Origin: a virus
Length of the DNA stretch: 35,719 nucleotides
Reading direction: 5' to 3' (one strand)
Virus genome (UHGV): UHGV-0071189
Program-made: the position numbers and the translations under genes
Notes under the pieces: generated by a model
Databases searched by the model: none
What the model saw: the letters and a program-made list of their open reading frames with translations, nothing else
What the model was told of the DNA's origin: nothing
Shown: one piece after another, positions 315 to 22,313 of the stretch
Layout of the letters: each line of letters begins with the position of its first letter
How positions within the stretch are numbered: position 1 is the first letter of the stretch

Positions 315-455
315 TTACTGCTTACACTGTAAGAACGCCGCAAACTCCGCTCCCCAGAAGCTCATCCGTATTTCGCACAGTGAACCGTGCAGCATCCAGA
401 TGATGAGGATTGCCGTCACGCAGAACGTGATGGCCGTAAGCGATTTTTGCGACAT
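315..455 (-). CDS. hok: Hok/Gef-family type I toxin (46 aa, MSQKSLTAITFCVTAILIIWMLHGSLCEIRMSFWGAEFAAFLQCKQ)
   Basis: Own translation of minus strand; single TM segment followed by SLCEIR...E.AAFL.C signature of Hok proteins; GGAG 8 nt upstream of ATG; too short for the supplied ORF track. Confidence 0.7.
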   Translation of the reverse strand: MSQKSLTAITFCVTAILIIWMLHGSLCEIRMSFWGAEFAAFLQCKQ

Positions 456-585
456 AGCACTTGCTCCTTTTCCGGAGAGGCGCTAACCTTTCACTTGTCA
501 AGGTAATGCGGTTAGGGCCTCGGTTAAACAGAGATGTTTTCCGGGGCCTTTCCACATCTGGCCTTCGGGTATTCCCTCCGACCAT
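322..585 (-). CDS. mok-like overlapping reading frame (modulator of hok translation), tentative
   Basis: 87-aa ORF in another frame fully overlapping hok, as in hok/mok/sok loci; no independent sequence support. Confidence 0.3.
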   Translation of the reverse strand: MVGGNTRRPDVERPRKTSLFNRGPNRITLTSERLAPLRKRSKCYVAKIAYGHHVLRDGNPHHLDAARFTVRNTDELLGSGVCGVLTV

Positions 586-645
586 CAGCCGAAAGGCACC
601 CGCGCGTAATCTATCGCTTTTTTGTTAATCCGGCAATTCTGCCTG

Positions 646-906
646 TTAGTTCTGAGGTAAAGGCAAACTCATCTGATTGTTTCCCCTGTGTGAAGCTGGC
701 AGCTCATGCCACGGGATACCTTCTGAAGAGTGAACGGCGGAGGCGTGTTTTGATGTGAATTTATGGAAGGCTTCCAGTGTTGAGAAGCATACGCCGCATT
801 CCAGGTTGTTACACTGGTAATACTTTTGCCGCACGGTGTTTGAGTCATTTTCCGGACGACTTGTGCGGATACGGGCAGATGCGCCACAAAGCGGACAACG
901 GAACAT
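646..906 (-). CDS. ogr: Ogr/Delta-family zinc-finger late gene transcription activator
   Basis: N-terminus MFRCPLCG...YYQCNNLECG matches Ogr C-x2-C...C-x4-C zinc finger; position next to att as in P2. Confidence 0.8.
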   Translation of the reverse strand: MFRCPLCGASARIRTSRPENDSNTVRQKYYQCNNLECGVCFSTLEAFHKFTSKHASAVHSSEGIPWHELPASHRGNNQMSLPLPQN

Positions 907-1138
907 AGAGACCTCCCTTAACGTGGTGCTTCTGTTATTTTAAGTTCTACTAGCTCCGATTCCAACTGACTAAACCGCTTTGAGTTGAGGGGCTGACATT
1001 CTTATTATTCGCTTATCAAAGAATAGCTAGTCAAACCTGATACATTAAAATCAGCACGTTATTTTGATTGTGTGATATCATAACATTATGTTATTAATGC
1101 GTTAAATTGGGATATCTAATTCAGATTGTGAGGTATTT

Positions 1139-2308
1139 ATGGGAAAGAATAGTCAACGTAGGCGAGATAATAAAATTAAGCGAGAAAATGAGAAAAAAAG
1201 AAACTTAGCGGCAAAGATAAATAAAATGTTGTATATAAAGCCTGATATATTTTTTGATGAATCAGGTAATACTGGCGGAAATTTACTCGATCCATTGCAA
1301 CCTGTTTTTACCTTAAGTTCAAGTAGTATTAGTAAACAGGATGCGCTTAAGGCATTAGAACTAACCGGAAGCAAGTCTCCAACAGAAGCCCACTTTAAAA
1401 CTCTTAGACGTAGAAAATCTGGTCAGGATGGCATCATTAGGCTTCTTGAAAGCAAATATGTCAATGAAGAGAATGTTAAAATATACTTGGTCGATAAAAA
1501 ATACATGCTAACAGCAAAGATTGTTGATATTTTGATCGAGACGTGGTGCTCTAATAGAGGAATAGATCTTTATATAAATGGACAGAATCTAGCTCTGTCT
1601 AATGTTTACTATTTCTGTTTCCCTGCTTTCTGTGGGGAGGAAAAAACAGAGGTAATGTATCAGTGTTTTATGAATATGATCAGAAGCCAATCGACTGAGT
1701 CAATTGATGAATTTTACAGGGTAATTGATGAGTTAAAGATATGCTCAAGTGATAAGATATTCACAGATATAATAAACAGAATTAGTATTACCAGAAGCGA
1801 TATTGATGATATATTGGAAGGTGTTGAGAAAAGCACATTAGATCCATCTATACCAAGCCTCTTTAGACACTGTGTAGAATGGGGTAAATTATACCCTAAT
1901 GGTTTTTATATTAAGCATGACGATTCCAAAGCTATTACAGAGAAGAAAGATATTTTTGATAAATTTATGGATATATCAAAAATTACGGAGGCATATGGTT
2001 ATGATCGAAGAAAATTTGAATTGCCAATTAAAGCTCGTTCTTTGACATTCCATTCATCACAAGAGTATCCTCAATTACAAATTGTAGATATAGTAGCAAG
2101 TGCGGCTGCTTATTATGTTAACTGTCTAAAAAGAAATGACTTAGAAGATTATCTCTTTAAAGAACTTCAAAGAATAAAAATAGATAACTATTTTAAAAAT
2201 ATGGCCATTTGGCCTACAACATATGTTACACCTCAAGAATTAGGCACAATTTATACTGGTGGGCGAAACCCTGCAGATGGAGTCGCTGATTATCTTTCTC
2301 AATATTAG
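1139..2308 (+). CDS. AT-rich cargo protein, 389 aa, tentatively DUF3800-like with possible RNase H-like fold; moron between ogr and D
   Basis: N-terminal IFFDESGNTG and C-terminal QLQIVDIVASAA match the DE and QxxD motifs I recall for DUF3800; strongly AT-rich versus backbone; GAGGT RBS; opposite strand to flanking phage genes. Confidence 0.45.
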   Translation: MGKNSQRRRDNKIKRENEKKRNLAAKINKMLYIKPDIFFDESGNTGGNLLDPLQPVFTLSSSSISKQDALKALELTGSKSPTEAHFKTLRRRKSGQDGIIRLLESKYVNEENVKIYLVDKKYMLTAKIVDILIETWCSNRGIDLYINGQNLALSNVYYFCFPAFCGEEKTEVMYQCFMNMIRSQSTESIDEFYRVIDELKICSSDKIFTDIINRISITRSDIDDILEGVEKSTLDPSIPSLFRHCVEWGKLYPNGFYIKHDDSKAITEKKDIFDKFMDISKITEAYGYDRRKFELPIKARSLTFHSSQEYPQLQIVDIVASAAAYYVNCLKRNDLEDYLFKELQRIKIDNYFKNMAIWPTTYVTPQELGTIYTGGRNPADGVADYLSQY

Positions 2309-2330
2309 TAACTGGAGTTTTAATTAATAT

Positions 2331-2350
2331 GGCCGCGTTAGCGGCCTTTC
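2331..2350. terminator. Bidirectional terminator hairpin GGCCGC-GTTA-GCGGCC + TTTC between the cargo gene and D
   Basis: Perfect 6-bp GC stem, 4-nt loop, flanked by A/T-rich sequence; lies between convergent genes. Confidence 0.5.
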
Positions 2351-2399
2351 TAACTATGTTTATTGCTAGTACATATCTGAACTAATACATTTAAGACAT

Positions 2400-3509
2400 T
2401 CACGCTGTTTCTGCTATCCATTCCGGGATTTTTGCCTCAAGCTCAAGCTGCGTGGTAAAGCCGCTGTTATCAATGGTGTGCTCGGCTTTTGCAATAATCC
2501 AGTCCTGATTGTCGATGTCACTTTTGAAGCCTGTCACCGTGCCATGCATTTCGGGATAGAGTTCTGCACGTCCACGCGCCAGCGTGATGGAGAATGATGC
2601 GGCTCCGCGTTGTAGTTGCTGCCACTTTGCCGCCGCTGCGCGTCTTGCTGCCTGCTCGTTCTGATAAGTCTTGCGTAACACAAACACATTGCCTTCCGCG
2701 CCTTCCATATAATCACCTTCACGGCTGCTGCTTTTCTCCTTTTTGGGTTTTGGCGGTTTACGGCGTTTCACGCTGACTTTTTTCTTTTTCCCGTAATTAA
2801 GATCAAGCCAGTAGGCGCGTACCCCCGTATACGCCTCGCGGTCAGCAATACGGAACTGATGGCGATCGCCGCTGCTGCGTGTAATGGCGAACGAGGGCAA
2901 CGGCTGGCCCTGTGCGTTCACGCCACCACCTGGCATGATGAATAACAGATTGCCGCTTTTTACCGTGGTGATTGCGCCCAGCATTTCCGCCATGCGCGTA
3001 AGGAAGGACATATCGCTTTCTTCGGTCTGGTCGGCGTGGTCGATTTCGATATCCATCAGCATTTCGCTGATTTGCGGTTTCAGACCATACCGATGAGCGA
3101 TGGCGGATACCACACGCTCAACGGTCACATCATGCCAGGACACCTCACGTTTAACGTTAAATTCATCCCGAAAATCTGCGCTTCTGGCTGAAACAGTCAG
3201 CCTGTCCGGCGGTCCTTCGTGAGCGATTTCATCAACAATGTAAGTGCCTTTTTCTGTCAGCGGTTCTCCTTTCCAGCCAATGAGAACCGTCAGGCGCGCG
3301 CCCCGTGGCGGTAGCTGCAACTGACCATCCGCATCATCCAGCGTGATGGTGAGCTGGTCCGCCTCAAATCCCCGGTTGTCGGTCAGTGACAGGCTCATCA
3401 GGCGCTCTGCCACGCCTGACAGCGTTTTACCCTCCGCGAGAATATCAAAATCCGGCATTTTCACGGGGTCTGTGCCCTGACTGAGCAATTGCATGGTGCT
3501 GTCGGTCAT
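2400..3509 (-). CDS. D: Tail protein D (gpD, late control/tail hub protein)
   Basis: LSLTDNRGFEADQLTITLDDADGQL matches P2 gpD family; start taken at internal ATG 3509 with GGGAGGGA RBS (ORF track extends to 3641). Confidence 0.8.
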   Translation of the reverse strand: MTDSTMQLLSQGTDPVKMPDFDILAEGKTLSGVAERLMSLSLTDNRGFEADQLTITLDDADGQLQLPPRGARLTVLIGWKGEPLTEKGTYIVDEIAHEGPPDRLTVSARSADFRDEFNVKREVSWHDVTVERVVSAIAHRYGLKPQISEMLMDIEIDHADQTEESDMSFLTRMAEMLGAITTVKSGNLLFIMPGGGVNAQGQPLPSFAITRSSGDRHQFRIADREAYTGVRAYWLDLNYGKKKKVSVKRRKPPKPKKEKSSSREGDYMEGAEGNVFVLRKTYQNEQAARRAAAAKWQQLQRGAASFSITLARGRAELYPEMHGTVTGFKSDIDNQDWIIAKAEHTIDNSGFTTQLELEAKIPEWIAETA

Positions 3510-3666
3510 CTGTTCCCTCCCTGTGCGGCATGGTCGCATGTGCGTGCGGAGGGGGTTACTGCTTTTTGTTGTCGCCGTGGCGGGAGAACGTCGCAGGGGT
3601 GAGATTACGCGCGTGGTGGGTGATGATTGTTGCCGAATCATTTAACGGATACAAGGGGCTGAAGCT

Positions 3667-4851
3667 ATGAGTGAAACTCGTTTTCATGGTGCCCGTGTTA
3701 CGGAAAATACCGACCTGGTAACAGCGATTAACGATGTTGATTCCAGTGTTATCGGTATCGTGGCAACGGCGGATGATGCGGACGCGAAGCTGTTCCCGCT
3801 GAACAAGCCCACACTGCTGACCCGCGTCAATGACGTGCTGGGAAAATGCGGGACAACGGGGACGCTTTATCGTGCGCTTAAGGCCATTGCAGACCAGGTG
3901 AGCACAAAGGTGATCGTCGTTCGCGTGGCTGAACACAAAGAAGAAGACGGAAAGACGCAGGATCAACTGGTTATCGGTGGTTCTGAGGATGACGGCAGCT
4001 ATACGGGGATGTATGCGCTGCTTGTTGCAGAGCAGGATGAAAGCATCGGATACCGTCCGCGTATTCTGGCCGCGCCGGAGCTGGACACGGAGGCTGTAAC
4101 AAAATCCCTGTGCGTGATTGCAGGTAAACTGCGCGCGTTTGTGTATGCCTCATGTTACGGCTGTAACACGATGGCTGAGGCGATTACCTACCGCCAGAAA
4201 TTCAACGAACGTGAGGTGATGCTCTTATGGCCGGACTTCATCGCCTACAACCCGAAAAGTGGCAAAAACGAAACGTTCCCCGCGCCTGCCTATGCGTGCG
4301 GCCTTCGTGCGTACATTGACCATGAGCAGGGATGGCACAAATCATTGTCCAACGTTCCGGTTAAAAATGTGCTGGGGATGTCGAGGCATGTGTTCTGGTC
4401 GTTGCAGGCCGAAGACAGCGATGCCAACAGCCTCAACAACAAAGAAATCACGACCATTATTCGTCGCAACGGGTTCCGCTTCTGGGGCAACCGCACACCG
4501 GAAACGAACGCCTACATCTTTGAGGTGTATACCCGAACCGCACAGGTGCTGGCTGATTCAATTGCGGAAGCGCAGTTTGAAACCATCGACAGTCCACTGA
4601 CGCCTGCGAATGTGAAGGATGTTATCAGTGCCATCAGGGCAAAACTGGATTCGCTGGTTACTGCCGGGAAACTGATTGGTGCGGAGTGCTGGTATGACGT
4701 GGTGGATAACGGCACCACGAATTTACGTCAGGGACGTGTGCGTATTCGCTACAAATATACGCCTGTTCCCCCGCTGGAAGACATGGAGCTTTACCAGACG
4801 TTTACTGATGAATTCTTTGGTCCCGCATTTGCGGTGCTGGGAGGTGCCTGA
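3667..4851 (+). CDS. FI: Tail sheath protein FI
   Basis: FPLNKP, EQGWHKSLSNV, RRNGFRFWGNRT, YTPVPPLE motifs match P2 gpFI; 394 aa. Confidence 0.9.
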   Translation: MSETRFHGARVTENTDLVTAINDVDSSVIGIVATADDADAKLFPLNKPTLLTRVNDVLGKCGTTGTLYRALKAIADQVSTKVIVVRVAEHKEEDGKTQDQLVIGGSEDDGSYTGMYALLVAEQDESIGYRPRILAAPELDTEAVTKSLCVIAGKLRAFVYASCYGCNTMAEAITYRQKFNEREVMLLWPDFIAYNPKSGKNETFPAPAYACGLRAYIDHEQGWHKSLSNVPVKNVLGMSRHVFWSLQAEDSDANSLNNKEITTIIRRNGFRFWGNRTPETNAYIFEVYTRTAQVLADSIAEAQFETIDSPLTPANVKDVISAIRAKLDSLVTAGKLIGAECWYDVVDNGTTNLRQGRVRIRYKYTPVPPLEDMELYQTFTDEFFGPAFAVLGGA

Positions 4852-5363
4852 TGGCTGTACCAAAACATCTTCGCTTTTTTACGTTGTTTGTGGATGGTGA
4901 AAACGAAGTGGGTAAAGTGACATCCGTCACGCCGCCCAAACTGACGCGCAAAACCGACAGCTATCGTGGTGGTGGCATGATGGGGGCGGTAAGTATTGAT
5001 CTCGGTCTGGACGACTCCGCGCTTGATGCGAGTTTTGTCATGGGGGGAGCTGTTCGTGCGCTGTTCCTTAAATATGGCGGCACGATTGACGGCACGCTGC
5101 TGCGTTTTGCGGGTGAATACTACACCGATGCAGAAAGCGATCTGTATGAAATCGAGATGCGTGGGCGTGTGACGGAAATTGATATGGGGGAAGCCAAACA
5201 GGGCGAAGCCACATCACACACTTACGCTGTCAAAAACACCTACTACAAGCTGAGCGTTAACGATCGCCCGCTGTGGGAAATCGACCTGTTGAACCACATC
5301 TACCGGAAGGACGGCAAGGACATTGTGCCTGACCGTATCCGTTCCGCGCTTGGGCTTGGCTGA
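4851..5363 (+). CDS. FII: Tail tube protein FII
   Basis: 170 aa immediately after sheath gene (ATGA-type coupling), size and position of P2 gpFII. Confidence 0.8.
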   Translation: MAVPKHLRFFTLFVDGENEVGKVTSVTPPKLTRKTDSYRGGGMMGAVSIDLGLDDSALDASFVMGGAVRALFLKYGGTIDGTLLRFAGEYYTDAESDLYEIEMRGRVTEIDMGEAKQGEATSHTYAVKNTYYKLSVNDRPLWEIDLLNHIYRKDGKDIVPDRIRSALGLG

Positions 5364-5418
5364 TAAGTAATATGCAGGCTGCGCAGTGCGTCGCCTCTGA
5401 CTGAAAAGGAGACAACTG

Positions 5419-5793
5419 ATGAAAGACATCGATACTGAAACCCGGAATAACACCGTGGCGGATGATGTGACGGCAGGTGAGGATATGACTGTCGAACGTG
5501 GCGTAAAACTGACCCGACCAATTGAGCGTGGTGGCGAAAAAATCACGTATGTGGAGATCACCGGGGCTATTGAGCAGGCTGGATCCCTGCGTGGTCTGTC
5601 GCTGTCTGATGTGCTGAATCTGAAAGCGGATACCATGTTCACGCTGTTGCCTCGCGTGACCTCGCCACGACTGGATGAAGTGATGATTAAAAAAATGTCG
5701 TCACGCGATTTTATTCAGTTGTGCGCTGTGGCTGTAAATTTTATGAGCGAGCCAGACTCTGGCGCGAAGAGCGTGCAGGAGACGGCAGCGTAA
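5419..5793 (+). CDS. E: Tail assembly chaperone E (zero-frame product)
   Basis: GSLRGLSLSDV...LPRVTSP resembles P2 gpE; precedes tape measure gene. Confidence 0.7.
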   Translation: MKDIDTETRNNTVADDVTAGEDMTVERGVKLTRPIERGGEKITYVEITGAIEQAGSLRGLSLSDVLNLKADTMFTLLPRVTSPRLDEVMIKKMSSRDFIQLCAVAVNFMSEPDSGAKSVQETAA

Positions 5794-5957
5794 TCACCCT
5801 GGTGTGCTTTGAGCACATCGAAGATCTGGTGGCGGATATTGCCGCCATTTTTAACTGGTCGCCCGCCGAAATCTTCATGATGACGCCCGGCGAAGTGGTT
5901 AGCTGGCGTGAGCGGGCGGCACTTCGCAGCGGGAATGCAGACAATGAAGACTCTTGA
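5419..5957 (+). CDS. Tail assembly chaperone E+E' made by programmed -1 frameshift (slip at A7 5689..5695 or AAATTTT 5736..5742)
   Basis: -1 frame is open from 5691 and encodes conserved E' C-terminus (VCFEHIEDLV...WRERAALRSGN); two slippery heptamers in the overlap. Confidence 0.55.
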
Positions 5958-8751
5958 CATCCGGGTCGCTTTCAGCGCCGTTGACAGGCTGACCCGGCCT
6001 GCCGAAAACGCCCGCCGCCTGATGGGGCAGTTTGGTGACTCCATCCAGCGAACGCAGGGGGCGATCAAAAATCTCGAGCGTCAGGCGCGTTCATTTGAGC
6101 GCGCCCGTGACGCTGTCAGTAAAGCGGATGCTGGCATATTGAAAGCACGACGCCAGCTTAACGCCCTTAATCAGTTACAACGCACGGGTACAGTGCTCAG
6201 CGAAAAACAACAAAAGCTGATGCAGCAGTTAAGCACCCGGCTTGAACGCCTGAATGAATCGCGCACACGGGAAATTCAGAAAATGCGGGAACTTGGCGGA
6301 GAGCTGAAACGCCACGGCATTTCCCTGACAGGCAGCGATAACACCATCCAGCAGGCCATCAGACGCACCGAACAGTACAACAACCAGCTTGAACGCGAAC
6401 GGCAGGCGCTTGCGCGTGTAACGCGGGCGCGTGAGCGGTATTCGCGCGCGCAGGAAACAGCGGGAAAACTGAAAACAGGTGGTGCGCTGGCAATTGGTGC
6501 GGCAGCGGCGGGCGGCTATGCTGCCGGGCGTTTTTTGCAGCCTGCGATCGGGTTCGGCAAAGAGATGTCCCGCGTTCAGGCACTGACGCGAATCGACAAA
6601 AACAGCCCGCAGTTTAAGGCGCTGCGTGAGCAGGCGTTAAAACTTGGCTCTGAAACACAGTTTACTGCGAGTGATGCCGCCAGTGGGCAGAGCTTTCTGG
6701 CAATGGCTGGGTTTACTCCGCAGGCCATTCAGGCCGCATTGCCCGGTGTTCTTAATATGGCGCTGGCAGGTGGCGTCGAACTCGGCGAGACGGCTGATAT
6801 AGGCTCCAATATCCTCACACAGTTCAACCTGACAGCCGATCAAATGGACCGGGTTGGCGATACGCTGACAGCAGCATTCACCCGGACCAATACTGATTTA
6901 CGCGCGCTGGGCGAAACCATGAAGTATACCGGTCCGGTTGCCGCAAAACTTGGTATCAGTCTTGAAGAAGCGGCGGCCATGGCCGGGATGCTTGCCAATA
7001 ATGGTCTTCGCGGAAGCGATGCTGGTACGGCCATGCGCGCAAGTCTGTCCCGCCTTGCATCACCGCCAAAAGCTGCGGCTGATGCACTGAAAGAGCTGGG
7101 GGTGTCAGTTGCTGACGCCAGAGGCAAAATGCGCCCGATGGAGAATGTGCTGCTTGATCTCTATAAGGCGACACAAAAATACGGACAGGTGGACCAGGTC
7201 TCCTTCTTCAAGGACATCGCCGGAGAAGAGGCGTTCGTTGGTTTGCAGACGCTTGTTGCGGCGGCTGGTTCAGGAGAACTGCAAAAACTGACCAGAGAAT
7301 TGCAGGGGGCAAGGGGAGAGGCCGATCGCGTTGCAAAAGTAATGGCCGATAATCTTGATGGGGACCTGAAAAATCTCGACAGCGCATGGGAAGGTCTTCG
7401 TATTCGCATCAGTGATCTGGTTGACGGTCCGCTGCGTTCTGTCACGCAGTGGCTCACGCGGGTGCTTGAAAAAATCACCTCGCTGGCGCAGGCCCATCCG
7501 GTACTGACGCGCCAGCTACTGATAGCAGGCAGTGCGTTGCTGGCAATGACTGCAACGATTGGCTCGTTGTCGCTGGTTATTGGGGTGCTTTACGGGAAGC
7601 TGGCCACCCTGCGTCTTGGTTTCGACATTCTTACCCGGTCAATGAATGTCATCAGGGTGTTGCCTGCGCTGTGGGGAATGGTGACGGGTTCTGTTTCTTT
7701 GCTGGGAGGCGCTATCGGGGCGCTGTTCAGTCCGGTTGGTCTTATCGTGGCTGCGCTTGCCGGAGCTGCCGTTCTTATCTGGAAATACTGGGATCCCATC
7801 AGGGTATTTTTTGCCGGGGTGTTCAGCGGGATTATGGAAAGGCTGACCCCGTTGCGCGAAACCTTTGAACGGTTTGGTCCTGTTTTTGACGCAATCGGAA
7901 GCGGGATCAGCCAGGTGTTTAACTGGTTTAAATCGCTGCTGTCACCGATGGAGTCCAGCAAGGAAACGCTGGATAAATGTACCAGTGCTGGCGAGATATT
8001 CGGTAACGTTCTTGGCGGTGCGTTACAACTTGTTCTGACACCTGCAAAAATGCTACTGGATACGCTGGCGTGGATACTTGAAAAACTCGGTGTCCTTCCG
8101 GATGAAGCGGAAAGGGCGCGCAAGAAAATCGAAGACGCACAGCGTGCGGCCATTCTTCAGGACAAGGTTGCCTTGCTTCAGGGGGACCTGGCGAAAATCA
8201 ATCCGCCGAAGCCTGTGGAAAATGGCAATGGCACCGGAGGTGATAAACCCAAAGACAACAAACCGCTCACAGACAGCAATACCGGGACGCTACGCAGACT
8301 CAGCAAAATTGCTGATAACACAGGTAAGCTGGTTGATGAGACGAAAAAACGCATTGGCCCCGGCGATATTGTCTTTAAGAACCTGCCCCGCGCACTTGCT
8401 GTTCGTGGGGAGTGGCAGGAGCGGAAGATTGCGCAGGTCAGTAAGCCTGCCCCCGCAATTAATATCACACCCGTGGTCCCGGCTCCGCTGCTTCCGGCGC
8501 TGGTCCCTGTTGTTGCGGCCAGCTCCCGCCCGGTGGCGGAGGCCATACGATCGCCAGTGGCATCAGTTCCTGTAACTTCCCGTAACCGGGAGCCTGTTGC
8601 CTCCGGATTTGGTGGTGAAATTCATGTTCATCTGCATAACGTTGTTACGCAGAATCCCCGCGAACTGGCGAAACTGGTCGGTGAAATGGTCAGGGCAGAA
8701 ATGGAACGGCGCGCCCGTGCCGGGCGTGGCAGTTTTTACGATAAAGATTGA
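5908..8751 (+). CDS. T: Tail tape measure protein T
   Basis: 947-aa protein with coiled-coil N-terminus and Gly/Ala-rich hydrophobic central region, directly after E/E'; GTG start in track, true start may be ATG at 5935 or 5944. Confidence 0.85.
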   Translation: MSGRHFAAGMQTMKTLDIRVAFSAVDRLTRPAENARRLMGQFGDSIQRTQGAIKNLERQARSFERARDAVSKADAGILKARRQLNALNQLQRTGTVLSEKQQKLMQQLSTRLERLNESRTREIQKMRELGGELKRHGISLTGSDNTIQQAIRRTEQYNNQLERERQALARVTRARERYSRAQETAGKLKTGGALAIGAAAAGGYAAGRFLQPAIGFGKEMSRVQALTRIDKNSPQFKALREQALKLGSETQFTASDAASGQSFLAMAGFTPQAIQAALPGVLNMALAGGVELGETADIGSNILTQFNLTADQMDRVGDTLTAAFTRTNTDLRALGETMKYTGPVAAKLGISLEEAAAMAGMLANNGLRGSDAGTAMRASLSRLASPPKAAADALKELGVSVADARGKMRPMENVLLDLYKATQKYGQVDQVSFFKDIAGEEAFVGLQTLVAAAGSGELQKLTRELQGARGEADRVAKVMADNLDGDLKNLDSAWEGLRIRISDLVDGPLRSVTQWLTRVLEKITSLAQAHPVLTRQLLIAGSALLAMTATIGSLSLVIGVLYGKLATLRLGFDILTRSMNVIRVLPALWGMVTGSVSLLGGAIGALFSPVGLIVAALAGAAVLIWKYWDPIRVFFAGVFSGIMERLTPLRETFERFGPVFDAIGSGISQVFNWFKSLLSPMESSKETLDKCTSAGEIFGNVLGGALQLVLTPAKMLLDTLAWILEKLGVLPDEAERARKKIEDAQRAAILQDKVALLQGDLAKINPPKPVENGNGTGGDKPKDNKPLTDSNTGTLRRLSKIADNTGKLVDETKKRIGPGDIVFKNLPRALAVRGEWQERKIAQVSKPAPAINITPVVPAPLLPALVPVVAASSRPVAEAIRSPVASVPVTSRNREPVASGFGGEIHVHLHNVVTQNPRELAKLVGEMVRAEMERRARAGRGSFYDKD

Positions 8752-8757
8752 GGAGTC

Positions 8758-9252
8758 ATGGCTATGATGATGATCTACGGCATGTTTGTTTTTGAGCTGC
8801 GCACGCTGCCGCATCAGCAGTTACAGCAAAACAAAAGCTGGCGGCATGTAAAAAATGAACGCGTTAACCGTTCAGCAAGCTGGCAGTATATCGGTGCAGG
8901 TGATGATCGCATCGTTCTTTCTGGTGTGCTTTATCCTGAAATTACAGGTGGCGAAGTGTCGCTGTCGCTGCTGACCACGCAGGCGTATACAGGACGACCC
9001 TGGCCTTTGATTGATGGTGTCGGGCAGATTTACGGCATGTATGTCCTGACCGGAACGAATACGACCCGTTCCGAGTTTGATCGCTACGGTAAGGCGAAAA
9101 AGATAGAATTTTCACTGACTCTTGAACGCTGTGATGAGGATTTGCGGGAGCGCCTGCAATCCTCATCGTTCAGTGATATGCTGTCCGGCTTCAAAGATAA
9201 GGTGACATCATCTCTTAACAGCGCGGCCAGTTCAGTTAAAGGGCTGTTCTGA
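8758..9252 (+). CDS. U: Tail protein U
   Basis: N-terminus MMMIYGMFVFELRTLPHQQLQ...WRH...VLYPEITGG matches P2 gpU; GAGGAG RBS. Confidence 0.8.
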   Translation: MAMMMIYGMFVFELRTLPHQQLQQNKSWRHVKNERVNRSASWQYIGAGDDRIVLSGVLYPEITGGEVSLSLLTTQAYTGRPWPLIDGVGQIYGMYVLTGTNTTRSEFDRYGKAKKIEFSLTLERCDEDLRERLQSSSFSDMLSGFKDKVTSSLNSAASSVKGLF

Positions 9253-9261
9253 TTTAACACA

Positions 9262-9291
9262 AAAACCGCTAATGGTCAGATTAGCGGTTTT
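9262..9291. terminator. Bidirectional terminator: perfect 12-bp stem AAAACCGCTAAT/ATTAGCGGTTTT, loop GGTCAG, between convergent U and invertase
   Basis: Seen directly; flanked by A-run and T-run; right arm overlaps the invertase stop codon. Confidence 0.6.
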
Positions 9292-9880
9292 CATTTTCCT
9301 GAGTCTGCCCGGTTGTTTCTTCAGTCTGTATATCGCCTACAGGGTGATAACGATAAATCGTCGATGTGCCAATGCCGTAAATTATTGCCAGTTGTTTTCT
9401 GTCGTGCCCGTTTTTGATTAGCCTTGCTATTTGCTCATGCTGTTCTTTTGTCAGCTTCGGTCGACGTCCGCCTGTGCGCCCCCTTGCGCGCGCTGCCGCC
9501 AGCCCGGCCAGTGTACGTTCAACAATTAATTCACGTTCCATTTCAGCCAGGGCACCCATCACGTGGAAGAAAAAACGCCCCATTGGAGAAGATGTGTCTA
9601 TGCTGTCGGTCAGACTGCGAAAATTAATCCCTCGCTCCCGTAGTTCCCCGACGAGAGAAATCAGATGTTTCATGCTTCGCCCGAGGCGATCCAGTTTCCA
9701 GACAACCAGCGTGTCACCTTTTTGAAGGCGCTTTAAAGCGCGTTTTAATCCCGGTCGGTCTGTCTTTGTCCCGCTTAATTTATCTTCAAATATTTGTTCA
9801 CATCCTGCACAAACAAGAGCGTTTCGTTGCAGGTCTGTATTCTGGTCATTTGTTGATACCCTTACATAGCCAATCAGCAC
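9281..9880 (-). CDS. Site-specific DNA invertase, serine recombinase of the Gin/Hin/Cin/Pin family
   Basis: LIGYVRVSTNDQ catalytic-serine motif, resolvase core and C-terminal HTH (GTSTIYRY); start taken at GTG 9880 with GGGAGA RBS (track start TTG 9898). Confidence 0.85.
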   Translation of the reverse strand: MLIGYVRVSTNDQNTDLQRNALVCAGCEQIFEDKLSGTKTDRPGLKRALKRLQKGDTLVVWKLDRLGRSMKHLISLVGELRERGINFRSLTDSIDTSSPMGRFFFHVMGALAEMERELIVERTLAGLAAARARGRTGGRRPKLTKEQHEQIARLIKNGHDRKQLAIIYGIGTSTIYRYHPVGDIQTEETTGQTQENENR

Positions 9881-9934
9881 ACTGAATCTCCCGTCCAAAA
9901 GCGCAAATCATGCCATGCAGGCCAGAAACGGCCA

Positions 9935-9960
9935 TTATTTAAAACCTCGGTTTACGAGAA
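9935..9960. repeat. gix/hix-like recombination site (right boundary of invertible segment), TTATTTAAAACCTCGGTTTACGAGAA
   Basis: Palindromic AAACC-TC-GGTTT core typical of Gin/Hin crossover sites; inverted copy at 12613..12638. Confidence 0.75.
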
Positions 9961-10656
9961 CTCGGCACAAGCGGGGAGAAAATACCGTTACTCAGTACAG
10001 CGAATACCTGGACTAATCGACAAACATTCAGCGGTGGCCTTTCTGGGGAACTGTCCGGCAATGCCGCTACTGCAACAAAGTTGAAAACAGCACGAAAAAT
10101 TGCTGGAGTTGGTTTTGATGGTTCTAGCGATATTTCAATTAGTGCCAAAAATGTCAATGCATTTGCACTCCGACAAACAGGTAATACTGTTAATGGTGAT
10201 ACATCCGTTGGATGGAATTGGGATAGTGGTGCATATAACGCCCTGATTGGTGGTGCATCTGCATTAATTCTTCACTTTAATATAAATGCTGGTAGCTGTC
10301 CTGCCGTACAATTCCGTGTGAATTATAAAAATGGTGGCATTTCCTACAGGTCGGCTCGTGATGGTTATGGGTTTGAATTAGGTTGGTCAGATTTCTATAC
10401 CACGACACGAAAACCTTCAGCGGGAGATGTTGGTGCATATACGCAGGCAGAATGTAACTCAAGGTTTATTACAGGTATTCGCCTTGGCGGCCTGTCATCT
10501 GTTCAGACATGGAATGGTCCCGGCTGGTCTGACAGGTCAGGTTATGTCGTTACGGGTTCAGTTAACGGAAACCGTGATGAATTAATTGATACAACACAGG
10601 CAAGGCCAATTCAGTATTGCATTAATGGGACGTGGTATAACGCGGGGAGTATTTAA
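9949..10656 (+). CDS. Alternative tail-fibre C-terminal coding segment (Hv'), silent in this orientation; no start codon of its own
   Basis: Frame open from just inside the gix site (stop TAA at 9940..9942 lies outside); encodes fibre-like sequence ...NAATATKLKTARKIAGVGFDGSSDIS... Confidence 0.7.
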   Translation, partial: GLRELGTSGEKIPLLSTANTWTNRQTFSGGLSGELSGNAATATKLKTARKIAGVGFDGSSDISISAKNVNAFALRQTGNTVNGDTSVGWNWDSGAYNALIGGASALILHFNINAGSCPAVQFRVNYKNGGISYRSARDGYGFELGWSDFYTTTRKPSAGDVGAYTQAECNSRFITGIRLGGLSSVQTWNGPGWSDRSGYVVTGSVNGNRDELIDTTQARPIQYCINGTWYNAGSI

Positions 10657-10658
10657 CG

Positions 10659-11192
10659 ATGATGCACTTAAAAAACATTACTGCTGGCAACCCTAAAACA
10701 AAAGAGCAATACCAGCTAACAAGGCAATTTAACATCAAATGGCTTTATTCAGATGATGGAAAAAACTGGTATGAGGAACAAAAGAATTTCCAGCCAGACA
10801 CTTTGAAAATGGTCTATGACCATAACGGCGTTATTATTTGTATTGAAAAGGATGTTTCAGCAATTAATCCGGAAGGCGCAAGCGTCGTTGAATTACCTGA
10901 TATTACAGCAAATCGCCGGGCTGATATTTCGGGGAAATGGATGTTCAAAGATGGCGTAGTGATAAAGCGAACTTATACCGAGGAAGAGCAGAGGCAACAA
11001 GCGGAAAATGAAAAGCAAAGCCTGTTGCAACTTGTCAGGGATAAAACCCAGCTATGGGACTCACAGCTACGGCTGGGCATCATTTCCGACGAGAATAAAC
11101 AAAAATTAACCGAGTGGATGCTCTATGCGCAGAAAGTCGAATCTACAGACACCTCCAGCCTGCCAGTAACGTTTCCCGAACAACCAGAATGA
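10659..11192 (+). CDS. Alternative tail fibre assembly protein (Tfa'), paired with the silent fibre tip
   Basis: 177 aa, same family and about half identical to the expressed Tfa at 11221..11748 (shared [28 protein letters not shown]). Confidence 0.8.
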   Translation: MMHLKNITAGNPKTKEQYQLTRQFNIKWLYSDDGKNWYEEQKNFQPDTLKMVYDHNGVIICIEKDVSAINPEGASVVELPDITANRRADISGKWMFKDGVVIKRTYTEEEQRQQAENEKQSLLQLVRDKTQLWDSQLRLGIISDENKQKLTEWMLYAQKVESTDTSSLPVTFPEQPE

Positions 11193-11195
11193 GAG

Positions 11196-11215
11196 AAGGC
11201 CCGATATTGGGCCTT
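11196..11215. terminator. Hairpin AAGGCCC-GATATT-GGGCCTT between the two convergent tfa genes (bidirectional terminator)
   Basis: Perfect 7-bp GC-rich stem between convergent stop codons. Confidence 0.5.
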
Positions 11216-11220
11216 AATTT

Positions 11221-11748
11221 TTACTCAGGCTTTTGTGGCCATTCGGGATTTGCTGTATCCACACGGCTGACCAGAACGCTGTAGCGTTCCCATGACTCCA
11301 GTCGTGTGCGTTCCTCATCCGTCGCCATATTCAGCCTGACAGCGCGTTCCAGTGGCTGAATAACGCTTTCAGCTTCAGAAAGCAACGCGACCTTTTGTGA
11401 TTCGGCCTGTTGTTGCTGTTCGTCTGCTGTATAAATCCGCTTAACCACAGTTCCGTCCTTAAACATCCACTTCCCTGAATCATCGGCACGACGATTGGCT
11501 GTTATATCTGGAATCTCAACGACACTAAAGCCTTCGGGATTAAGCGTTGAGGCATCTTTGGTTATGGCAACAATAATATTATTTTCGTCGTATACAATCT
11601 TTATGGTGTCGTCCTGAAAGTTATTTACTTCCTCATACCAGTTTTTACCGTCTTCGGACCATAACCAGATAACATCAAAATTCTTTGTTAGCTGATATTG
11701 TTCTTTTGTTTTTGGATTTCCGGACTTAATATTTTTTAAATGCTGCAT
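11221..11748 (-). CDS. G: Tail fibre assembly protein G (expressed orientation)
   Basis: 175 aa directly downstream of H; Tfa-family motifs. Confidence 0.85.
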
Positions 11749-11751
11749 AAT

Positions 11752-13902
11752 TTACACCTGTGCGACGTTATACCATGTGCCATTGATGTATTTTTGTATT
11801 GGTCTGAAGATGGCTTCATCATCGCCATCTACTTCACCAATGATTCTTAATCCGGTAATTGCGTGTCCGGCTTTTTCATAACGACCACCACGCGCCATCA
11901 ATTGAACAACACGCGTACCCAGGCGAACATCTTTTACATAGCGTGAATCAAAATTCCCCCAGTTGCTGGGCTGTATCTGACCGTTAACAGAAAATATTAC
12001 CGAGTTATCTGTATTTCGCTGGCTATAGAAATGCCATCCTGCCTCATCGCCTAACTCTGCAACTACTGGACGGGTTGAAGCACCCCATAAATTAAACGTT
12101 GCATTCTTTGTGGAGGTGTTGGAGCTGGATAGCGAGAACTTTTTACTATCACCTGCCTGAATGTTTTTAAAAGCAATAGCAACTCCATTCTGAAAGCGGA
12201 ATACTCGCTGACTATTAGCGTAAACATCCAGAATACCATCACCATTCTGTTTGAATCCGGTGTCATTATCACCAAGAACAATAGAGCTACCACCTAACGC
12301 ATTCGTCGTACCAACTCCAAGACTGCCATTAATGACGGCATTTACCAGAATATTTAGTGCATCCCATTTCAGCGTCATCAGGTCTTTTGTTGTGGTGCTC
12401 TGGCGGCTTCTCCATTTGAAATATTCATTGCCGTTGTCGCCTGTTTCAAACCACATGTATGAATCAGTGTCACCATCAGCATCATTTTTAAATCCAATCT
12501 TCGCCCAGTCAGTATTTCGAATCCAGGCAAGGATTGAGTCATTTTCAAAAGTAAGCCCACCGGACAAGGTATCGCCATTTTTTTGCACGGCGTTACCAGC
12601 CCTGTTTACCGTTTCCTGTAAACCGAGGTATTCGATAACGGCGGCAACGGTCGATTTCGCAAGAATATCCCGCCCGACTTTTGTCAGAGTTGCCAGGCTG
12701 GCGACATCATTCCCCGTAAAATACGGAAACCTGTCTGCCGCAGTAGCAAGCCCGGCCAGCGCCGTCAGGGTGGCATCTTTCGGTTGCTTACCCGCAAGCG
12801 CGTTAGTCATGGTGGTCGCAAAATTCGGGTCGTTGCCCAACGCCGCAGCCAGCTCGTTCAGCGTGTTCAGTGCATCAGGTGACGAATCTACAAGGGCGGC
12901 AATCGCAGCCATAACGAAAGCCGTGCTTGCGATTTGGGTATTATTCGTTCCCTGTCGCGCAGTTGGTGTTGTTGGCGTTCCGGTCAGCGCCGGGCTGTTT
13001 AATGGGGCTTTCTTATTTGTTTCATCCATTACCGCCTTAACCGCTTTCGATGTCGCGGCCAATGTTTCAGACGAGCTGTTGGTGGCACTACTGAGCTGGA
13101 CAATCCCTTTTTGTGCTGTCGTGGCGTCCTGAGCGGTATATTTTGCGTTAGCAAGATCATACGCGGCCTTTACTGCTTTCGGCGTTGCAGCCTGCGTTTC
13201 AGACGTGCTGTTGGTGGCGCTACTGAGCTGGACAAGGCCTTTTCGCGTCGTGCTGGCATCCTGCGCAGTATATTTACCGTTAGCAAGATCATACGCGGCC
13301 TTAACCGCTTTCGGCGTTGCAGCCTGCGTTTCAGACACGCTGTTAGTGGCGCTACTGAGTTGAACAAAGCCTTTTGCGGTCAGCGAGGCGTCCGGGTGAC
13401 GTCGTGACTGTTCATGCTCTTTCAGTTTGTCATCCACGTAATCCACTGTGGCCATCACCATGGTGTTATCCACGGTAAGCGCCACGGTGGCAGTGCTGGA
13501 TACGGTCAGAATGGTGCGAAATGTTTGTGCACGACCGGACCCTTCGGCAACGGCTGGCTTGTAACTTTCGGCAGTATTGCCCACCGCGATTAAATCGCCG
13601 TGCTCATCAAATACACCAATTTCCCGGATCCAGAATCCGCCCGTTTCTGGAGGAATAACCAGCTCTGCAATAATGCGGTTCTGATGTGTTGCGTCCAGGA
13701 TGACGCGATTAACAGTGTGTCGCCACACCTCATGCACCAGACGGGTCTGCTTACTGTCAGGTGTGGGCAATGTACCGCCACCGTCGCCCACGGCCATATG
13801 AGTCAGGCGGACAGGCTTACCATCTGGCGCGGCTGCCTGCGCTAATTTTTTTGCACCCGTATCGGTGATAACGGTTTTAAATTTTCGTGTTGTGGTACTC
13901 AT
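11752..13902 (-). CDS. H: Tail fibre protein H (constant N-terminal part 13902..~12626 plus variable C-terminal part inside the invertible segment)
   Basis: 716 aa; conserved fibre N-terminus; three tandem 39-aa repeats; gix site at codons VIEYLG. Confidence 0.85.
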   Translation of the reverse strand: MSTTTRKFKTVITDTGAKKLAQAAAPDGKPVRLTHMAVGDGGGTLPTPDSKQTRLVHEVWRHTVNRVILDATHQNRIIAELVIPPETGGFWIREIGVFDEHGDLIAVGNTAESYKPAVAEGSGRAQTFRTILTVSSTATVALTVDNTMVMATVDYVDDKLKEHEQSRRHPDASLTAKGFVQLSSATNSVSETQAATPKAVKAAYDLANGKYTAQDASTTRKGLVQLSSATNSTSETQAATPKAVKAAYDLANAKYTAQDATTAQKGIVQLSSATNSSSETLAATSKAVKAVMDETNKKAPLNSPALTGTPTTPTARQGTNNTQIASTAFVMAAIAALVDSSPDALNTLNELAAALGNDPNFATTMTNALAGKQPKDATLTALAGLATAADRFPYFTGNDVASLATLTKVGRDILAKSTVAAVIEYLGLQETVNRAGNAVQKNGDTLSGGLTFENDSILAWIRNTDWAKIGFKNDADGDTDSYMWFETGDNGNEYFKWRSRQSTTTKDLMTLKWDALNILVNAVINGSLGVGTTNALGGSSIVLGDNDTGFKQNGDGILDVYANSQRVFRFQNGVAIAFKNIQAGDSKKFSLSSSNTSTKNATFNLWGASTRPVVAELGDEAGWHFYSQRNTDNSVIFSVNGQIQPSNWGNFDSRYVKDVRLGTRVVQLMARGGRYEKAGHAITGLRIIGEVDGDDEAIFRPIQKYINGTWYNVAQV
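12613..12638. repeat. gix/hix-like recombination site inside H (left boundary of invertible segment), TTCCTGTAAACCGAGGTATTCGATAA
   Basis: Inverted copy of the site at 9935..9960; identical central GTAAACCGAGGT. Confidence 0.75.
13039..13374 (-). repeat. Three tandem 117-bp (39-aa) repeats within H (KG.VQLSSATNS.SETQAATPKAVKAAYDLAN.KYTAQDA)
   Basis: Repeats read directly in the H translation; also produce the repetitive spurious antisense ORF 13111..13407. Confidence 0.75.
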
Positions 13903-15678: not shown

Positions 15679-16256
15679 TGCGGGCCTCCTGTCGAATCGC
15701 TGCCGCCTTTCACGCCACCGTGTTTATGCGTATGCACGGTAATGCCGTTTGAGGTGAAGTTGCCGCCGCTGTGCGTGATATTGCCGCTCATCTTTCCTCC
15801 TTTTGTGACGTCAAGCGTCGCTGTTCTCAGAAGGTTTGTGCATTCCACGACGGGCGTATCCAGTTTCACGCTGACGGATGCCTGTAAAGTGGCCGTTTTC
15901 ATGCCGCTGGCACTCAGTGCGCCTGCGTCCGCGTCGTAGCGGAACACCGCGCCATCCGGCGCGCTGACCACGATTTCTTTCAGGCTTTTGCCGGGTGCCG
16001 GACTGGCATCACTCCACAGGCTGCCAATTATCATGGCGGTTTCCGGGTTGCCGCCAATGCAGGCAATTACCACCTGTTCGCCGGGTGATGGCGGCAGCCA
16101 CACATTGAAGGCTCCCGCGCGCGTGGTGTTCCAGCGCAACCAGCCTGTTTCCAGTTCGCCGCTGCGAACGCGCACGCGCCAGGACTTCTCATCAACTTCA
16201 GAGATGATCCCGGTGCGGATGATGTTGCTCAGCAGTCGCATGAGTTCTGCGCTCAC
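15675..16256 (-). CDS. V: Baseplate spike/assembly protein V
   Basis: IRTGIISEVD...VECTNLL...KGGKMSGNITHSGG..HTHKH matches P2 gpV. Confidence 0.85.
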   Translation of the reverse strand: MSAELMRLLSNIIRTGIISEVDEKSWRVRVRSGELETGWLRWNTTRAGAFNVWLPPSPGEQVVIACIGGNPETAMIIGSLWSDASPAPGKSLKEIVVSAPDGAVFRYDADAGALSASGMKTATLQASVSVKLDTPVVECTNLLRTATLDVTKGGKMSGNITHSGGNFTSNGITVHTHKHGGVKGGSDSTGGPQ

Positions 16257-22159: not shown

Positions 22160-22313
22160 AGTTTTTGCCCCTCTGACTGGTTCTTCAGTCATGATGGCAA
22201 AGCGTAACAGGCTGATACAAAGGGCTTTTGTTGTAAGAAAACGGTCAGAACAGGGGGTTAAGGAGAACAGTTTCGCGCGCGGGTAATCTTCCTGTAATTA
22301 CTCAGGGGGAGCA

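What the first reader, a model, noticed from the sequence alone, without database searches (positions are those of the whole stretch)
2400..9291. FI-FII-E-T-U tail block is on the opposite strand to the other late operons and to D, unlike canonical P2
From memory of P2, the V-W-J-I-H-G and FI-FII-E-T-U-D operons are co-oriented and D is the last gene of the F operon. Here O..V..H..G and D are all on the minus strand but FI..U (3667..9252) are on the plus strand. FI and D diverge from a 157-bp intergenic region (3510..3666) and U converges on the invertase at a terminator. Inference: an inversion of about 5.6 kb with a breakpoint next to the invertase, or a lineage-specific arrangement; D would need its own late promoter.
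Basis: partly seen in the sequence, partly recalled or inferred. Interest (0 to 1): 0.45.

Follow-up and report, generated by a model that had tools for sequence, protein, structure and literature searches.

The report
Inverted tail-gene block, ordinary lineage trait
The tail sheath-to-U gene block of this P2-family prophage really is flipped relative to phage P2, but the flip is an old, fixed trait of a large group of related phages (P88-like and others, present in about a quarter of complete E. coli genomes), and gene D appears to have gained its own late promoter by sharing the activator site of the sheath operon.

Summary
Observation confirmed. D (2400-3509) and ogr lie on the minus strand with O..G. 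FI-FII-E-T-U (3667-9252) lie on the plus strand. A 157-bp D|FI spacer and a bidirectional terminator (9262-9291) bound the block. P2 has all these genes co-oriented.

It is not a misassembly or a recent invertase event. Phages P88, P884B11 and phiSM share the arrangement at 93-96% nt identity. So do 80/80 IMG/VR relatives, 1,355 of 5,426 complete E. coli genomes (none with the P2-type U-D junction), and every genome locus whose D is 58-98% identical, many without an invertase. The inverted set is monophyletic in D, FI, FII and U trees. Outgroups are colinear, so this is one old inversion.

The spacer holds one P2-type activator dyad (TGT-N12-AGA, 3570-3587). A -10-like hexamer ends exactly 40 nt beyond the dyad on each side: GATGAT towards FI and GACCAT towards D. 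This geometry holds in 96% and 89% of 56 distinct relatives and mirrors the mapped P2 pP/pO divergent promoter. The shared Ogr site driving both promoters is inferred, not shown.

Low interest: a known, very common arrangement. I found no paper that describes it.

The parts
646..906 (-). ogr: Ogr/Delta zinc-finger late activator
   Evidence: Pfam Ogr_Delta E=4.7e-14. Co-oriented with D, as in P2.
2400..3509 (-). D: baseplate hub / late control D. Here a separate transcription unit
   Evidence: Pfam Phage_GPD. 99% identical to a protein cluster with 6,052 members. Start at 3509 with a GGGAGGG Shine-Dalgarno sequence.
3530..3535 (-). Predicted -10 hexamer of the D promoter (GACCAT on the minus strand). 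Predicted transcription start near 3523
   Evidence: Ends 40 nt beyond the dyad. An nAnnnT hexamer sits at this exact offset in 89% of 56 distinct relatives, against a background of 0.12 or less on this side. Inferred, not mapped.
3537..3549 (.). Alternating C/G-rich run (GCATGTGCGTGCG; a clean (CG)4-5 in relatives) just upstream of the D -10
   Evidence: Conserved 34-42 nt from the dyad centre across the clade. Function unknown.
3570..3587 (.). Candidate Ogr operator: dyad TGT-N12-AGA, one mismatch to the P2 consensus TGT-N12-ACA. Proposed to be shared by the D and FI promoters
   Evidence: A dyad with 0-1 mismatch lies 78-88 nt from the FI ATG in 58 of 63 inverted loci, and usually 62-80 nt from the inferred D ATG. 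The same variant is at the O|P spacer, 22232-22249. Consensus taken from PMC3931495.
3622..3627 (+). Predicted -10 hexamer of the FI (pF-equivalent) promoter, GATGAT. Predicted transcription start near 3634
   Evidence: Ends 40 nt beyond the dyad. Present at this offset in 96% of 56 distinct relatives. In P2 pF the GAAAAT hexamer ends 41 nt beyond the dyad, with the mapped start 7-9 nt further on.
3667..4851 (+). FI: tail sheath
   Evidence: Pfam Phage_sheath_1, Gp18_domIII_N and Phage_sheath_1C.
4851..5363 (+). FII: tail tube
   Evidence: Pfam Phage_tube E=2e-45.
5419..5793 (+). E: tail assembly chaperone
   Evidence: Weak Pfam Phage_TAC_7 hit, 20.6 bits, below the 25-bit cut-off. Position matches P2 E.
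5691..5957 (+). E' reading frame (-1 relative to E), with a candidate slippery site A AAT TTT at 5736
   Evidence: Open -1 frame overlapping the 3' end of E. The P2 analogue is annotated. Candidate only.
5908..8751 (+). T: tape measure protein. The start may be the ATG at 5935
   Evidence: Pfam PhageMin_Tail E=5e-56. Start candidates listed.
8758..9252 (+). U: tail protein, last gene of the flipped operon
   Evidence: Pfam Phage_P2_GpU E=1.5e-38.
9262..9291 (.). Bidirectional intrinsic terminator between U and the invertase
   Evidence: 12-bp stem, dG -15.7 kcal/mol, z = -4.1.
9281..9898 (-). Gin/Cin-like serine invertase. A neighbour of the block, not the cause of the flip. The true start is probably the GTG near 9880
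   Evidence: Pfam Resolvase + HTH_7. About 92% nt identity to the Mu/D108 gin region. Its crossover sites lie at 9939-9957 and 12617-12635 only.
22232..22249 (.). Second copy of the same architecture: the TGT-N12-AGA dyad between O and P, with flanking -10 hexamers
   Evidence: CATCAT ends 41 nt beyond the dyad on the O side and TAATCT 40 nt on the P side. Given for comparison.

Best explanation
The window is a P88-like (Xuanwuvirus-type) member of the P2 family. An ancestor of a large clade flipped the FI-FII-E/E'-T-U segment together with its late promoter, and the flip became fixed. The clade includes Xuanwuvirus, Senquatrovirus, Reginaelenavirus and many prophages of Enterobacterales and Aeromonas.

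The flip placed the palindromic Ogr operator of the F promoter back to back with D. In today's genomes one dyad (3570-3587) sits midway between two weak promoters that lack a -35 element:
- One reads FI to U and ends at the bidirectional terminator at 9262-9291.
- The other reads D. In relatives without the DUF3800 insert it probably continues into ogr.

Ogr bound at the single site would activate both promoters, as one site serves the divergent pP and pO promoters in P2.

Shown: the gene order, its distribution and monophyly, and the conserved mirror geometry of dyad and -10 elements. Inferred: Ogr binding, the transcription starts (about 3634 plus strand, about 3523 minus strand), and that the event was a single in-place inversion.
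For: Arrangement and relatives:
- One colinear 9.6-kb match at 93-96% identity to P884B11, phiSM and P88, with identical gene orientations.
- All 80 IMG/VR loci keep the divergent FI|D junction; none has the P2-type order, though one (L032) is rearranged further downstream.
- 60 of 60 genome loci with D at 58-98% identity are inverted. All 20 loci with D at 49-53% identity are colinear.
- SEN5 and Klebsiella phage Kp4871-3 are inverted. P2, Fels-2, phiCTX, Mannheimia phiMhaA1 and Burkholderia phiX216 are colinear.
- The inverted set is monophyletic in NJ trees of D, FI, FII and U rooted on phiX216.

Fixation:
- The D|FI junction is present in 1,355 of 5,426 complete E. coli genomes.
- The hypothetical U-D junction is present in 0 of 1,413 genomes that hold both halves.

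Viability:
- phiSM is spontaneously active and P88 is inducible (PMC6456863).

Promoter:
- A TGT-N12-ACA dyad with 0-1 mismatch lies at a near-constant distance from the FI start codon and a less constant distance from the inferred D start, while the N12 spacer itself diverges.
- An nAnnnT hexamer ends exactly 40 nt beyond the dyad in 89% of 56 distinct regions on the D side and 96% on the FI side. The background at other offsets is 0.2 or less.
- Colinear relatives have the same dyad 76-83 nt upstream of FI but nothing conserved on the far side.
- In P2 pP/pO, the dyad is at 3063-3080 and the mapped starts at 3016 and 3127 are each 47 nt beyond a dyad end.
- No full sigma-70 consensus lies in 3510-3666.
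- The consensus TGT-N12-ACA is cited from PMC3931495.
Against: - No transcript or binding data exist for this spacer. Ogr dependence of the D promoter is inferred from geometry alone.
- The window's dyad has one mismatch (AGA for ACA).
- A whole-window scan for 'dyad plus -10 on both sides' gives 3 hits, no more than shuffled sequence (mean 3.2). The support comes from where two of the hits lie and from cross-species conservation, not from the count.
- The loci are phylogenetically related, so the conservation percentages are not independent observations.
- The conserved (CG)n run on the D side is unexplained and could be a site for another factor.
- Trees are simple NJ trees on tblastn-derived sequences, without bootstrap support.
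Confidence: 0.8

Rival explanations
1. The block is a recent or still active inversion made by the adjacent Gin-like invertase acting at secondary sites, so its orientation is variable.
For: - A serine invertase gene abuts the block at 9281-9898.
- One IMG/VR relative (L032) shows an aberrant rearrangement that splits T next to a second invertase copy. Rearrangements near invertases therefore do occur.
Against: - gix-like sites occur only at 9939-9957 and 12617-12635.
- Inverted repeats spanning the block are short, 77% matches inside coding sequence.
- The arrangement is present in relatives without any invertase.
- Fels-2 has an invertase but the P2 orientation.
- 0 of 1,413 E. coli genomes show the flipped junction, against 1,355 with the D|FI junction.
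Confidence: 0.02
2. The orientation is an assembly artefact of this window.
For: None found. Read support cannot be examined with these tools.
Against: Both junctions recur in independent complete phage genomes from different laboratories and in over a thousand complete E. coli chromosomes.
Confidence: 0.01
3. The arrangement is real and clade-wide, but D is expressed from an independent promoter that does not use the shared dyad. That promoter could be constitutive, driven by another factor binding the (CG)n run, or driven by a second unrecognised activator site.
For: - The conserved (CG)4-5 run lies only on the D side.
- The D-side -10 hexamers are weak, with 3-4 of 6 matches.
- There is no experimental evidence of Ogr dependence.
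Against: - The mirror geometry is exact: both -10 hexamers end 40 nt from the dyad ends.
- It is identical to P2 pP/pO, where one site serves two mapped starts.
- No sigma-70 -35/-10 pair lies in the spacer.
- A similar (CG)n run also precedes the -10 of the P promoter in the window, so the run is compatible with an Ogr-dependent promoter.
Confidence: 0.13
4. The arrangement arose not by an in-place inversion but by replacement of the FI-U module with a homologous module from another phage, inserted in the opposite orientation.
For: - P2-family genomes are mosaic. The baseplate J tree does not separate inverted from colinear genomes.
- Other late-operon rearrangements exist: Smp131 (PMC3931495) and relocated T in Mannheimia phiMhaA1.
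Against: - D lies outside the block, FI/FII/U lie inside, and all give the same bipartition with similar divergence from P2 (45-53% identity).
- The FI-side promoter keeps the pF geometry and the same operator orientation relative to FI as in colinear relatives. This is what a simple flip predicts.
Confidence: 0.08

Closest known systems
Escherichia phage P88, Xuanwuvirus P884B11 and Citrobacter phage phiSM (genus Xuanwuvirus, Peduoviridae)
   Same: 93-96% nt identity over 2400-12000 in one colinear piece. About 96% identity over about 70% of the rest of the window. Identical orientation of ogr, D, FI..U, the invertase and the tail-fibre genes.
   Different: The cargo differs. The window has a DUF3800 gene between D and ogr and a different low-GC three-gene insert between Q and A.
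Phage P2 F operon (FI-FII-E-E'-T-U-D) and its promoter pF
   Same: Same genes in the same internal order. Same promoter logic on the FI side: a TGT-N12-ACA-type dyad about 80 nt upstream of FI and a -10 hexamer ending 40-41 nt beyond the dyad.
   Different: In P2, D is the last gene of the operon, overlaps U, and is co-oriented with V..G. Here FI..U is flipped and D is a separate divergent unit. The first 12-18 residues of D are not alignable between the two groups. Protein identity to P2 is 32-49% for these genes.
Phage P2 divergent late promoters pP/pO
   Same: One activator site between two divergent late operons. The transcription starts (mapped in P2, predicted here) are each about 47 nt beyond a dyad end. 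A GC-rich stretch lies upstream of one -10.
   Different: In P2 this design is known only at P|O. In the inverted clade it is present twice, at P|O and at D|FI. The D|FI copy has no experimental support.
Mu G segment / Gin, P1 and P7 C segment / Cin invertible tail-fibre cassettes
   Same: The neighbouring 9939-12635 segment has a Gin-like recombinase, two inverted 26-bp-type crossover sites and alternative fibre-tip and chaperone genes. It is about 92% identical to Mu, D108, P7 and D6.
   Different: That system flips 2.65 kb of tail-fibre genes. It does not include or flank the FI-U block.

Membership tests
P2-family (Peduoviridae) contractile-tail late module | Sheath FI, tube FII, tape measure T, gpU and gpD homologues clustered together | tested here: met
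   Pfam hits above the curated cut-offs for all five. tblastn finds matches to the P2 genes in the same internal order.
P2-family (Peduoviridae) contractile-tail late module | E / E+E' chaperone pair made by a -1 frameshift | tested here: inconclusive
   The E hit to Phage_TAC_7 is below the cut-off (20.6 vs 25 bits). An overlapping -1 frame (5691-5957) and one candidate slippery heptamer at 5736 exist. Frameshifting was not demonstrated.
P2-family (Peduoviridae) contractile-tail late module | Ogr/Delta-type zinc-finger late activator encoded next to D | tested here: met
   Ogr_Delta E=4.7e-14 at 646-906. It is separated from D here by a 1.2-kb cargo gene but is adjacent to D in most relatives.
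Canonical P2 gene order (F operon co-oriented with the V operon, D as last gene) | FI..U and D on the same strand, with U abutting D | tested here: not met
   FI..U are on the plus strand and D on the minus strand. P2, Fels-2, phiCTX, phiX216 and phiMhaA1 meet this feature.
Genus Xuanwuvirus (P88-like) | High nucleotide identity across the genome to P88 / P884B11 (my recollection of the ICTV genus criterion is about 70% over the full length) | tested here: met
   96% identity over 96% of 2400-12000, and about 96% identity over 57-73% of 12001-35719. The product is about 0.7 or above for P88, phiSM and Chuche. The unmatched remainder is cargo and immunity genes.
P2-type Ogr-dependent late promoter | TGT-N12-ACA dyad centred about 55 nt upstream of the start, a weak -10 and no -35 | tested here: met
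   Dyad with one mismatch at 3570-3587. -10 hexamers at 3622-3627 (plus strand) and 3535-3530 (minus strand). No full sigma-70 match in the spacer.
P2-type Ogr-dependent late promoter | Transcription depends on Ogr (or the delta or B activators) and on the RNA polymerase alpha subunit | not testable with these tools
   Needs transcript mapping, reporter assays or binding assays.
Din-family (Gin/Cin/Hin/Pin) invertible segment | The segment is bounded by two inverted crossover sites recognised by the recombinase | tested here: not met
   This is the result for the FI-U block: no gix-like site lies near 3510-3666 or 9253-9280. The feature is met only for the tail-fibre segment 9939-12635.

The most novel reading that the evidence does not exclude
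A single ancient inversion turned the palindromic Ogr operator of the F promoter into a second bidirectional late promoter and split D off as its own Ogr-controlled unit. In most relatives this unit probably also feeds ogr. The change became the defining synapomorphy of a multi-genus branch of Peduoviridae that is now among the commonest prophage types in E. coli. It would be a clean natural example of promoter capture by inversion around a symmetric activator site. It would also mean that the textbook count of four P2 late promoters does not hold for a large part of the family: at least P, O, F and D are predicted here, and no separate V promoter was seen between S and V.
Probability: 0.7. 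Interest if true: 0.35.

Novelty: already known. Interest (0 to 1): 0.22.

Why it matters
The finding matters mainly for housekeeping.

- Annotators and comparative studies that use P2 as the template should expect the F block to be flipped and D to stand alone in P88-like, SEN4-like and Reginaelenavirus-like prophages. These are about 25% of complete E. coli genomes.
- The cargo hotspot called 'between G and FI' is 'between G and U' in these phages.
- The predicted shared-operator D/FI promoter is a small, directly testable extension of the P2 late-transcription model.
- The flip is a convenient clade marker.

It does not reveal a new kind of system.

Tried and rejected
1. Inverted repeats around the block. 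Only short 71-85% matches inside coding sequence, at chance level. Rejected as recombination sites.

2. A third gix-like site. None outside the tail-fibre segment.

3. A whole-window scan for 'dyad plus -10 on both sides'. It gave 3 hits against a mean of 3.2 in shuffles, so the count carries no weight. I rely on conservation instead.

4. Exact TGT-N12-ACA in the window. Seven hits, none in late intergenic regions. The phage uses an AGA variant.

5. A separate V-operon promoter. S and V overlap, and the only exact dyad nearby (16558) has a -10 on the wrong strand. No V promoter identified.

6. Testing whether the long 413-aa D ORF is real. Only 22 of 57 relatives close the frame before the dyad, which is suggestive but not decisive. 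The Shine-Dalgarno-preceded ATG is preferred.

7. Literature searches for a description of the flip. Nothing found in the P88, phiSM, P2-diversity or hotspot papers. Subscription-journal papers could not be searched.

8. Fels-2, which I suspected from memory to share the arrangement. It does not.

9. PADLOC, Pfam and NCBIfam on the cargo genes. No hits.
Full report
**What is there**

The window is a P2-family prophage drawn in the reverse of the usual P2 map. The ORF list and Pfam scans give the following genes.

| Feature | Coordinates | Strand |
|---|---|---|
| ogr | 646-906 | - |
| Low-GC DUF3800 gene | 1139-2308 | + |
| D | 2400-3509 | - |
| FI | 3667-4851 | + |
| FII | 4851-5363 | + |
| E | 5419-5793 | + |
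| T | 5908-8751 | + |
| U | 8758-9252 | + |
| Gin-like serine invertase | 9281 to about 9880 | - |
| Alternative fibre tip and chaperone | 10081-11192 | + |
| G | 11221-11748 | - |
| H | 11752-13902 | - |
| I, J, W, V, S, R ... O | up to about 22159 | - |
| P and Q | 22314-25111 | + |
| Replication gene A | 28378-31188 | - |
| Integrase | 33749-34870 | + |

- The D|FI spacer is 157 bp, 3510-3666.
- U and the invertase converge on a 12-bp stem-loop with flanking A and T runs at 9262-9291 (dG -15.7 kcal/mol, z = -4.1).
- In the annotated P2 record, V-W-J-I-H-G, FI-FII-E-T-U-D and ogr are all on one strand, and U abuts D.
Relative to P2, exactly FI..U is flipped, and D and ogr keep their place and strand.

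**Is it an artefact or a recent event? No.**

- Window 2400-12000 matches Xuanwuvirus P884B11 and Citrobacter phage phiSM at about 96%, and P88 at 93%. P884B11 and phiSM match as one colinear piece and P88 as two joined pieces. The records are annotated with the same orientations.
- phiSM is spontaneously active and P88 is inducible (PMC6456863). The arrangement is therefore compatible with a working phage.
- All 80 IMG/VR loci whose D is at least 99% identical have FI divergent from D. About half of them lack an invertase between the fibre genes and U.
- The D|FI junction (3300-3900) is present at over 95% identity in 1,355 of 5,426 complete E. coli genomes.
- The U|invertase junction is present in 631 of those genomes.
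- A synthetic query joining the D 5' end to the U 3' end (the P2-type junction) is covered as one piece in 0 of the 1,413 genomes that contain both halves.
- gix-like crossover sites occur only at 9939-9957 and 12617-12635. They bound the 2.65-kb Mu-G-like tail-fibre segment.
- The block is therefore fixed and is not an invertase substrate.

**How deep does the trait go?**

A scan of one genome per species, using a D-protein profile, returned 80 loci.

- Every locus with D at 58-98% identity to the window has the order U- T- E- FII- FI- D+ ogr+. There are 60 such loci.
- They come from Salmonella, Serratia, Edwardsiella, Erwinia, Pantoea, Kosakonia, Klebsiella, Xenorhabdus, Photorhabdus, Providencia, Morganella, Yersinia and an Aeromonas MAG, among others.
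- Every locus with D at 49-53% identity has the P2 order.

Named phages fall as follows.

| Orientation | Phages |
|---|---|
| Inverted | SEN5 (Senquatrovirus), Klebsiella Kp4871-3 (Reginaelenavirus), the Xuanwuvirus phages |
| Colinear | P2, Fels-2, phiCTX, Mannheimia phiMhaA1, Burkholderia phiX216 |

- In NJ trees of D, FI, FII and U rooted on phiX216, the inverted genomes form one clade. The tree of J, outside the block, does not separate them, which shows the usual mosaicism elsewhere.
- With colinear outgroups, the simplest reading is one old inversion, inherited since.
- In colinear relatives U and D abut or overlap. The first 12-18 residues of D do not align between the two groups. This fits a breakpoint at the U/D boundary and a remade D 5' end.
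- The other breakpoint lies upstream of the F promoter, at the cargo hotspot next to the fibre genes. In SEN5, G and U simply converge with no invertase. In Fels-2, an invertase sits at the same hotspot in the P2 orientation.

**How D is expressed (inferred)**

P2 late promoters share a TGT-N12-ACA dyad bound by Ogr (PMC3931495, citing Christie & Calendar 1985 and Julien & Calendar 1995).

- In P2, one dyad (3063-3080) lies between P and O. The mapped starts at 3016 and 3127 are each 47 nt beyond a dyad end.
- The window's D|FI spacer contains TGTCGCCGTGGCGGGAGA (3570-3587; TGT-N12-AGA).
- The same AGA variant, with the same TTTTGTTGT flank, sits between O and P at 22232-22249.
- Across 63 inverted loci, a dyad with 0-1 mismatch is found in 58. 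It lies 78-88 nt from the FI ATG and usually 62-80 nt from the inferred D ATG. Its N12 spacer diverges freely.

Anchoring 56 distinct spacers on the dyad gives a sharp result.

| Side | Share with an nAnnnT hexamer ending exactly 40 nt beyond the dyad | Typical hexamers | Window hexamer |
|---|---|---|---|
| FI | 96% | GATTAT, GATGAT, GAATAT | GATGAT, 3622-3627 |
| D | 89% | AATCAT, GATCCT, GACCAT | GACCAT, 3535-3530 |

- No other offset exceeds 20%.
- P2's mapped pF has GAAAAT ending 41 nt beyond its dyad, with the start 7-9 nt further on.
- Colinear relatives have the same dyad 76-83 nt upstream of FI, but nothing conserved on the far side.
- No complete sigma-70 promoter lies in the spacer.

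I therefore propose one Ogr site serving two mirror-image promoters, with starts near 3634 (FI..U) and 3523 (D). This copies the pP/pO design. The proposal rests on comparative geometry only. A loose whole-window scan for the same architecture gives no more hits than shuffled sequence (3 vs 3.2), although two of the three hits are the two divergent late spacers.

**Comparison with what is known, and novelty**

- The element is a P88-like Peduoviridae prophage.
- The gene order is already present in published, annotated phage genomes and in a quarter of complete E. coli genomes.
- I found no paper in the searchable library that comments on the flip or on a D promoter. Much of the older P2 literature is not searchable here.
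- Late-operon rearrangements in the family have been noted elsewhere: Smp131 and T relocated in phiMhaA1.
The only mildly new element is the predicted shared-operator D/FI promoter.

**Verdict**

The invertase link is not supported.
- Interest is low.

Noticed in passing
window 25289-28167 (+): A low-GC (about 35%) insert of three to four co-oriented ORFs: 458 aa at 25660-27036, 114 aa at 27048-27392, 263 aa at 27376-28167, and possibly 103 aa at 25289-25600. It lies between portal gene Q and replication gene A, the position of the P2 old/tin defence hotspot. There are no Pfam, NCBIfam or PADLOC hits and only weak PHROG hits of unknown function. The full insert is present in only 9 of 5,426 complete E. 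coli genomes, annotated each time as three hypothetical proteins. It is a candidate uncharacterised anti-phage cargo.
   Followed up: partly
window 1139-2308 (+): A 389-aa DUF3800 protein (GC about 33%; phrog_12991, function unknown) is inserted in the opposite orientation between D and ogr. Most relatives have D directly followed by ogr. The insert is in 5 of 80 near-identical IMG/VR loci and in 36 complete E. coli genomes, including O104:H4 outbreak strains. This is a third, rarer cargo site, and it would interrupt any D-to-ogr read-through.
   Followed up: partly
window 3537-3549 and 22276-22285; loci L086-L146: An alternating (CG)4-5 run lies immediately upstream of the -10 of the D-side promoter in almost every inverted-clade genome. 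A similar run precedes the -10 of the P promoter in the window. P2 pP has CGCGGGGCGCG at the same place. Its function is unknown.
   Followed up: partly
window 3570-3587 and 22232-22249: Both divergent late spacers of this phage use TGT-N12-AGA rather than ACA, as does a subgroup with D at 77-79% identity. More distant clade members use exact ACA. This may reflect co-variation with the Ogr protein. Not tested.
   Followed up: no
window 22159-22192 (-): The scaffold gene O probably starts at the ATG at 22159 (MANEKK..., preceded by GAGGGG), not at 22192 as the longest ORF suggests. This matches the P2 gpO N-terminus and leaves room for the O promoter.
   Followed up: partly
L032 (IMGVR_UViG_2654587728_000014) 433-7612: One near-identical relative has T split at about residue 455. 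The T C-terminal half, U and an invertase are flipped, and a second invertase copy sits next to the break. This is a rare secondary rearrangement or a chimeric assembly.
   Followed up: partly
window 9939-12635: A Mu-G / P1-C-like invertible tail-fibre segment. Inverted crossover sites lie at 9939-9957 and 12617-12635. The 3' part of H plus G is in the expressed orientation and an alternative tip plus chaperone (10081-11192) is on the other strand. It is about 92-94% nt identical to Mu, D108, P7 and D6.
   Followed up: partly
window 16253-16260: S and V overlap with no intergenic gap, and no dyad with a correctly oriented -10 lies upstream of V. P2 has orf30, a terminator and pV at this position. 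O..G may be one long operon here, or the V promoter may be too degenerate to recognise.
   Followed up: partly
L167 (Mannheimia phage phiMhaA1-BAA410) 1-2697: In this colinear outgroup the gene annotated as tape measure T lies upstream of V rather than between E and U. It is a separate example of late-operon rearrangement in the family.
   Followed up: no
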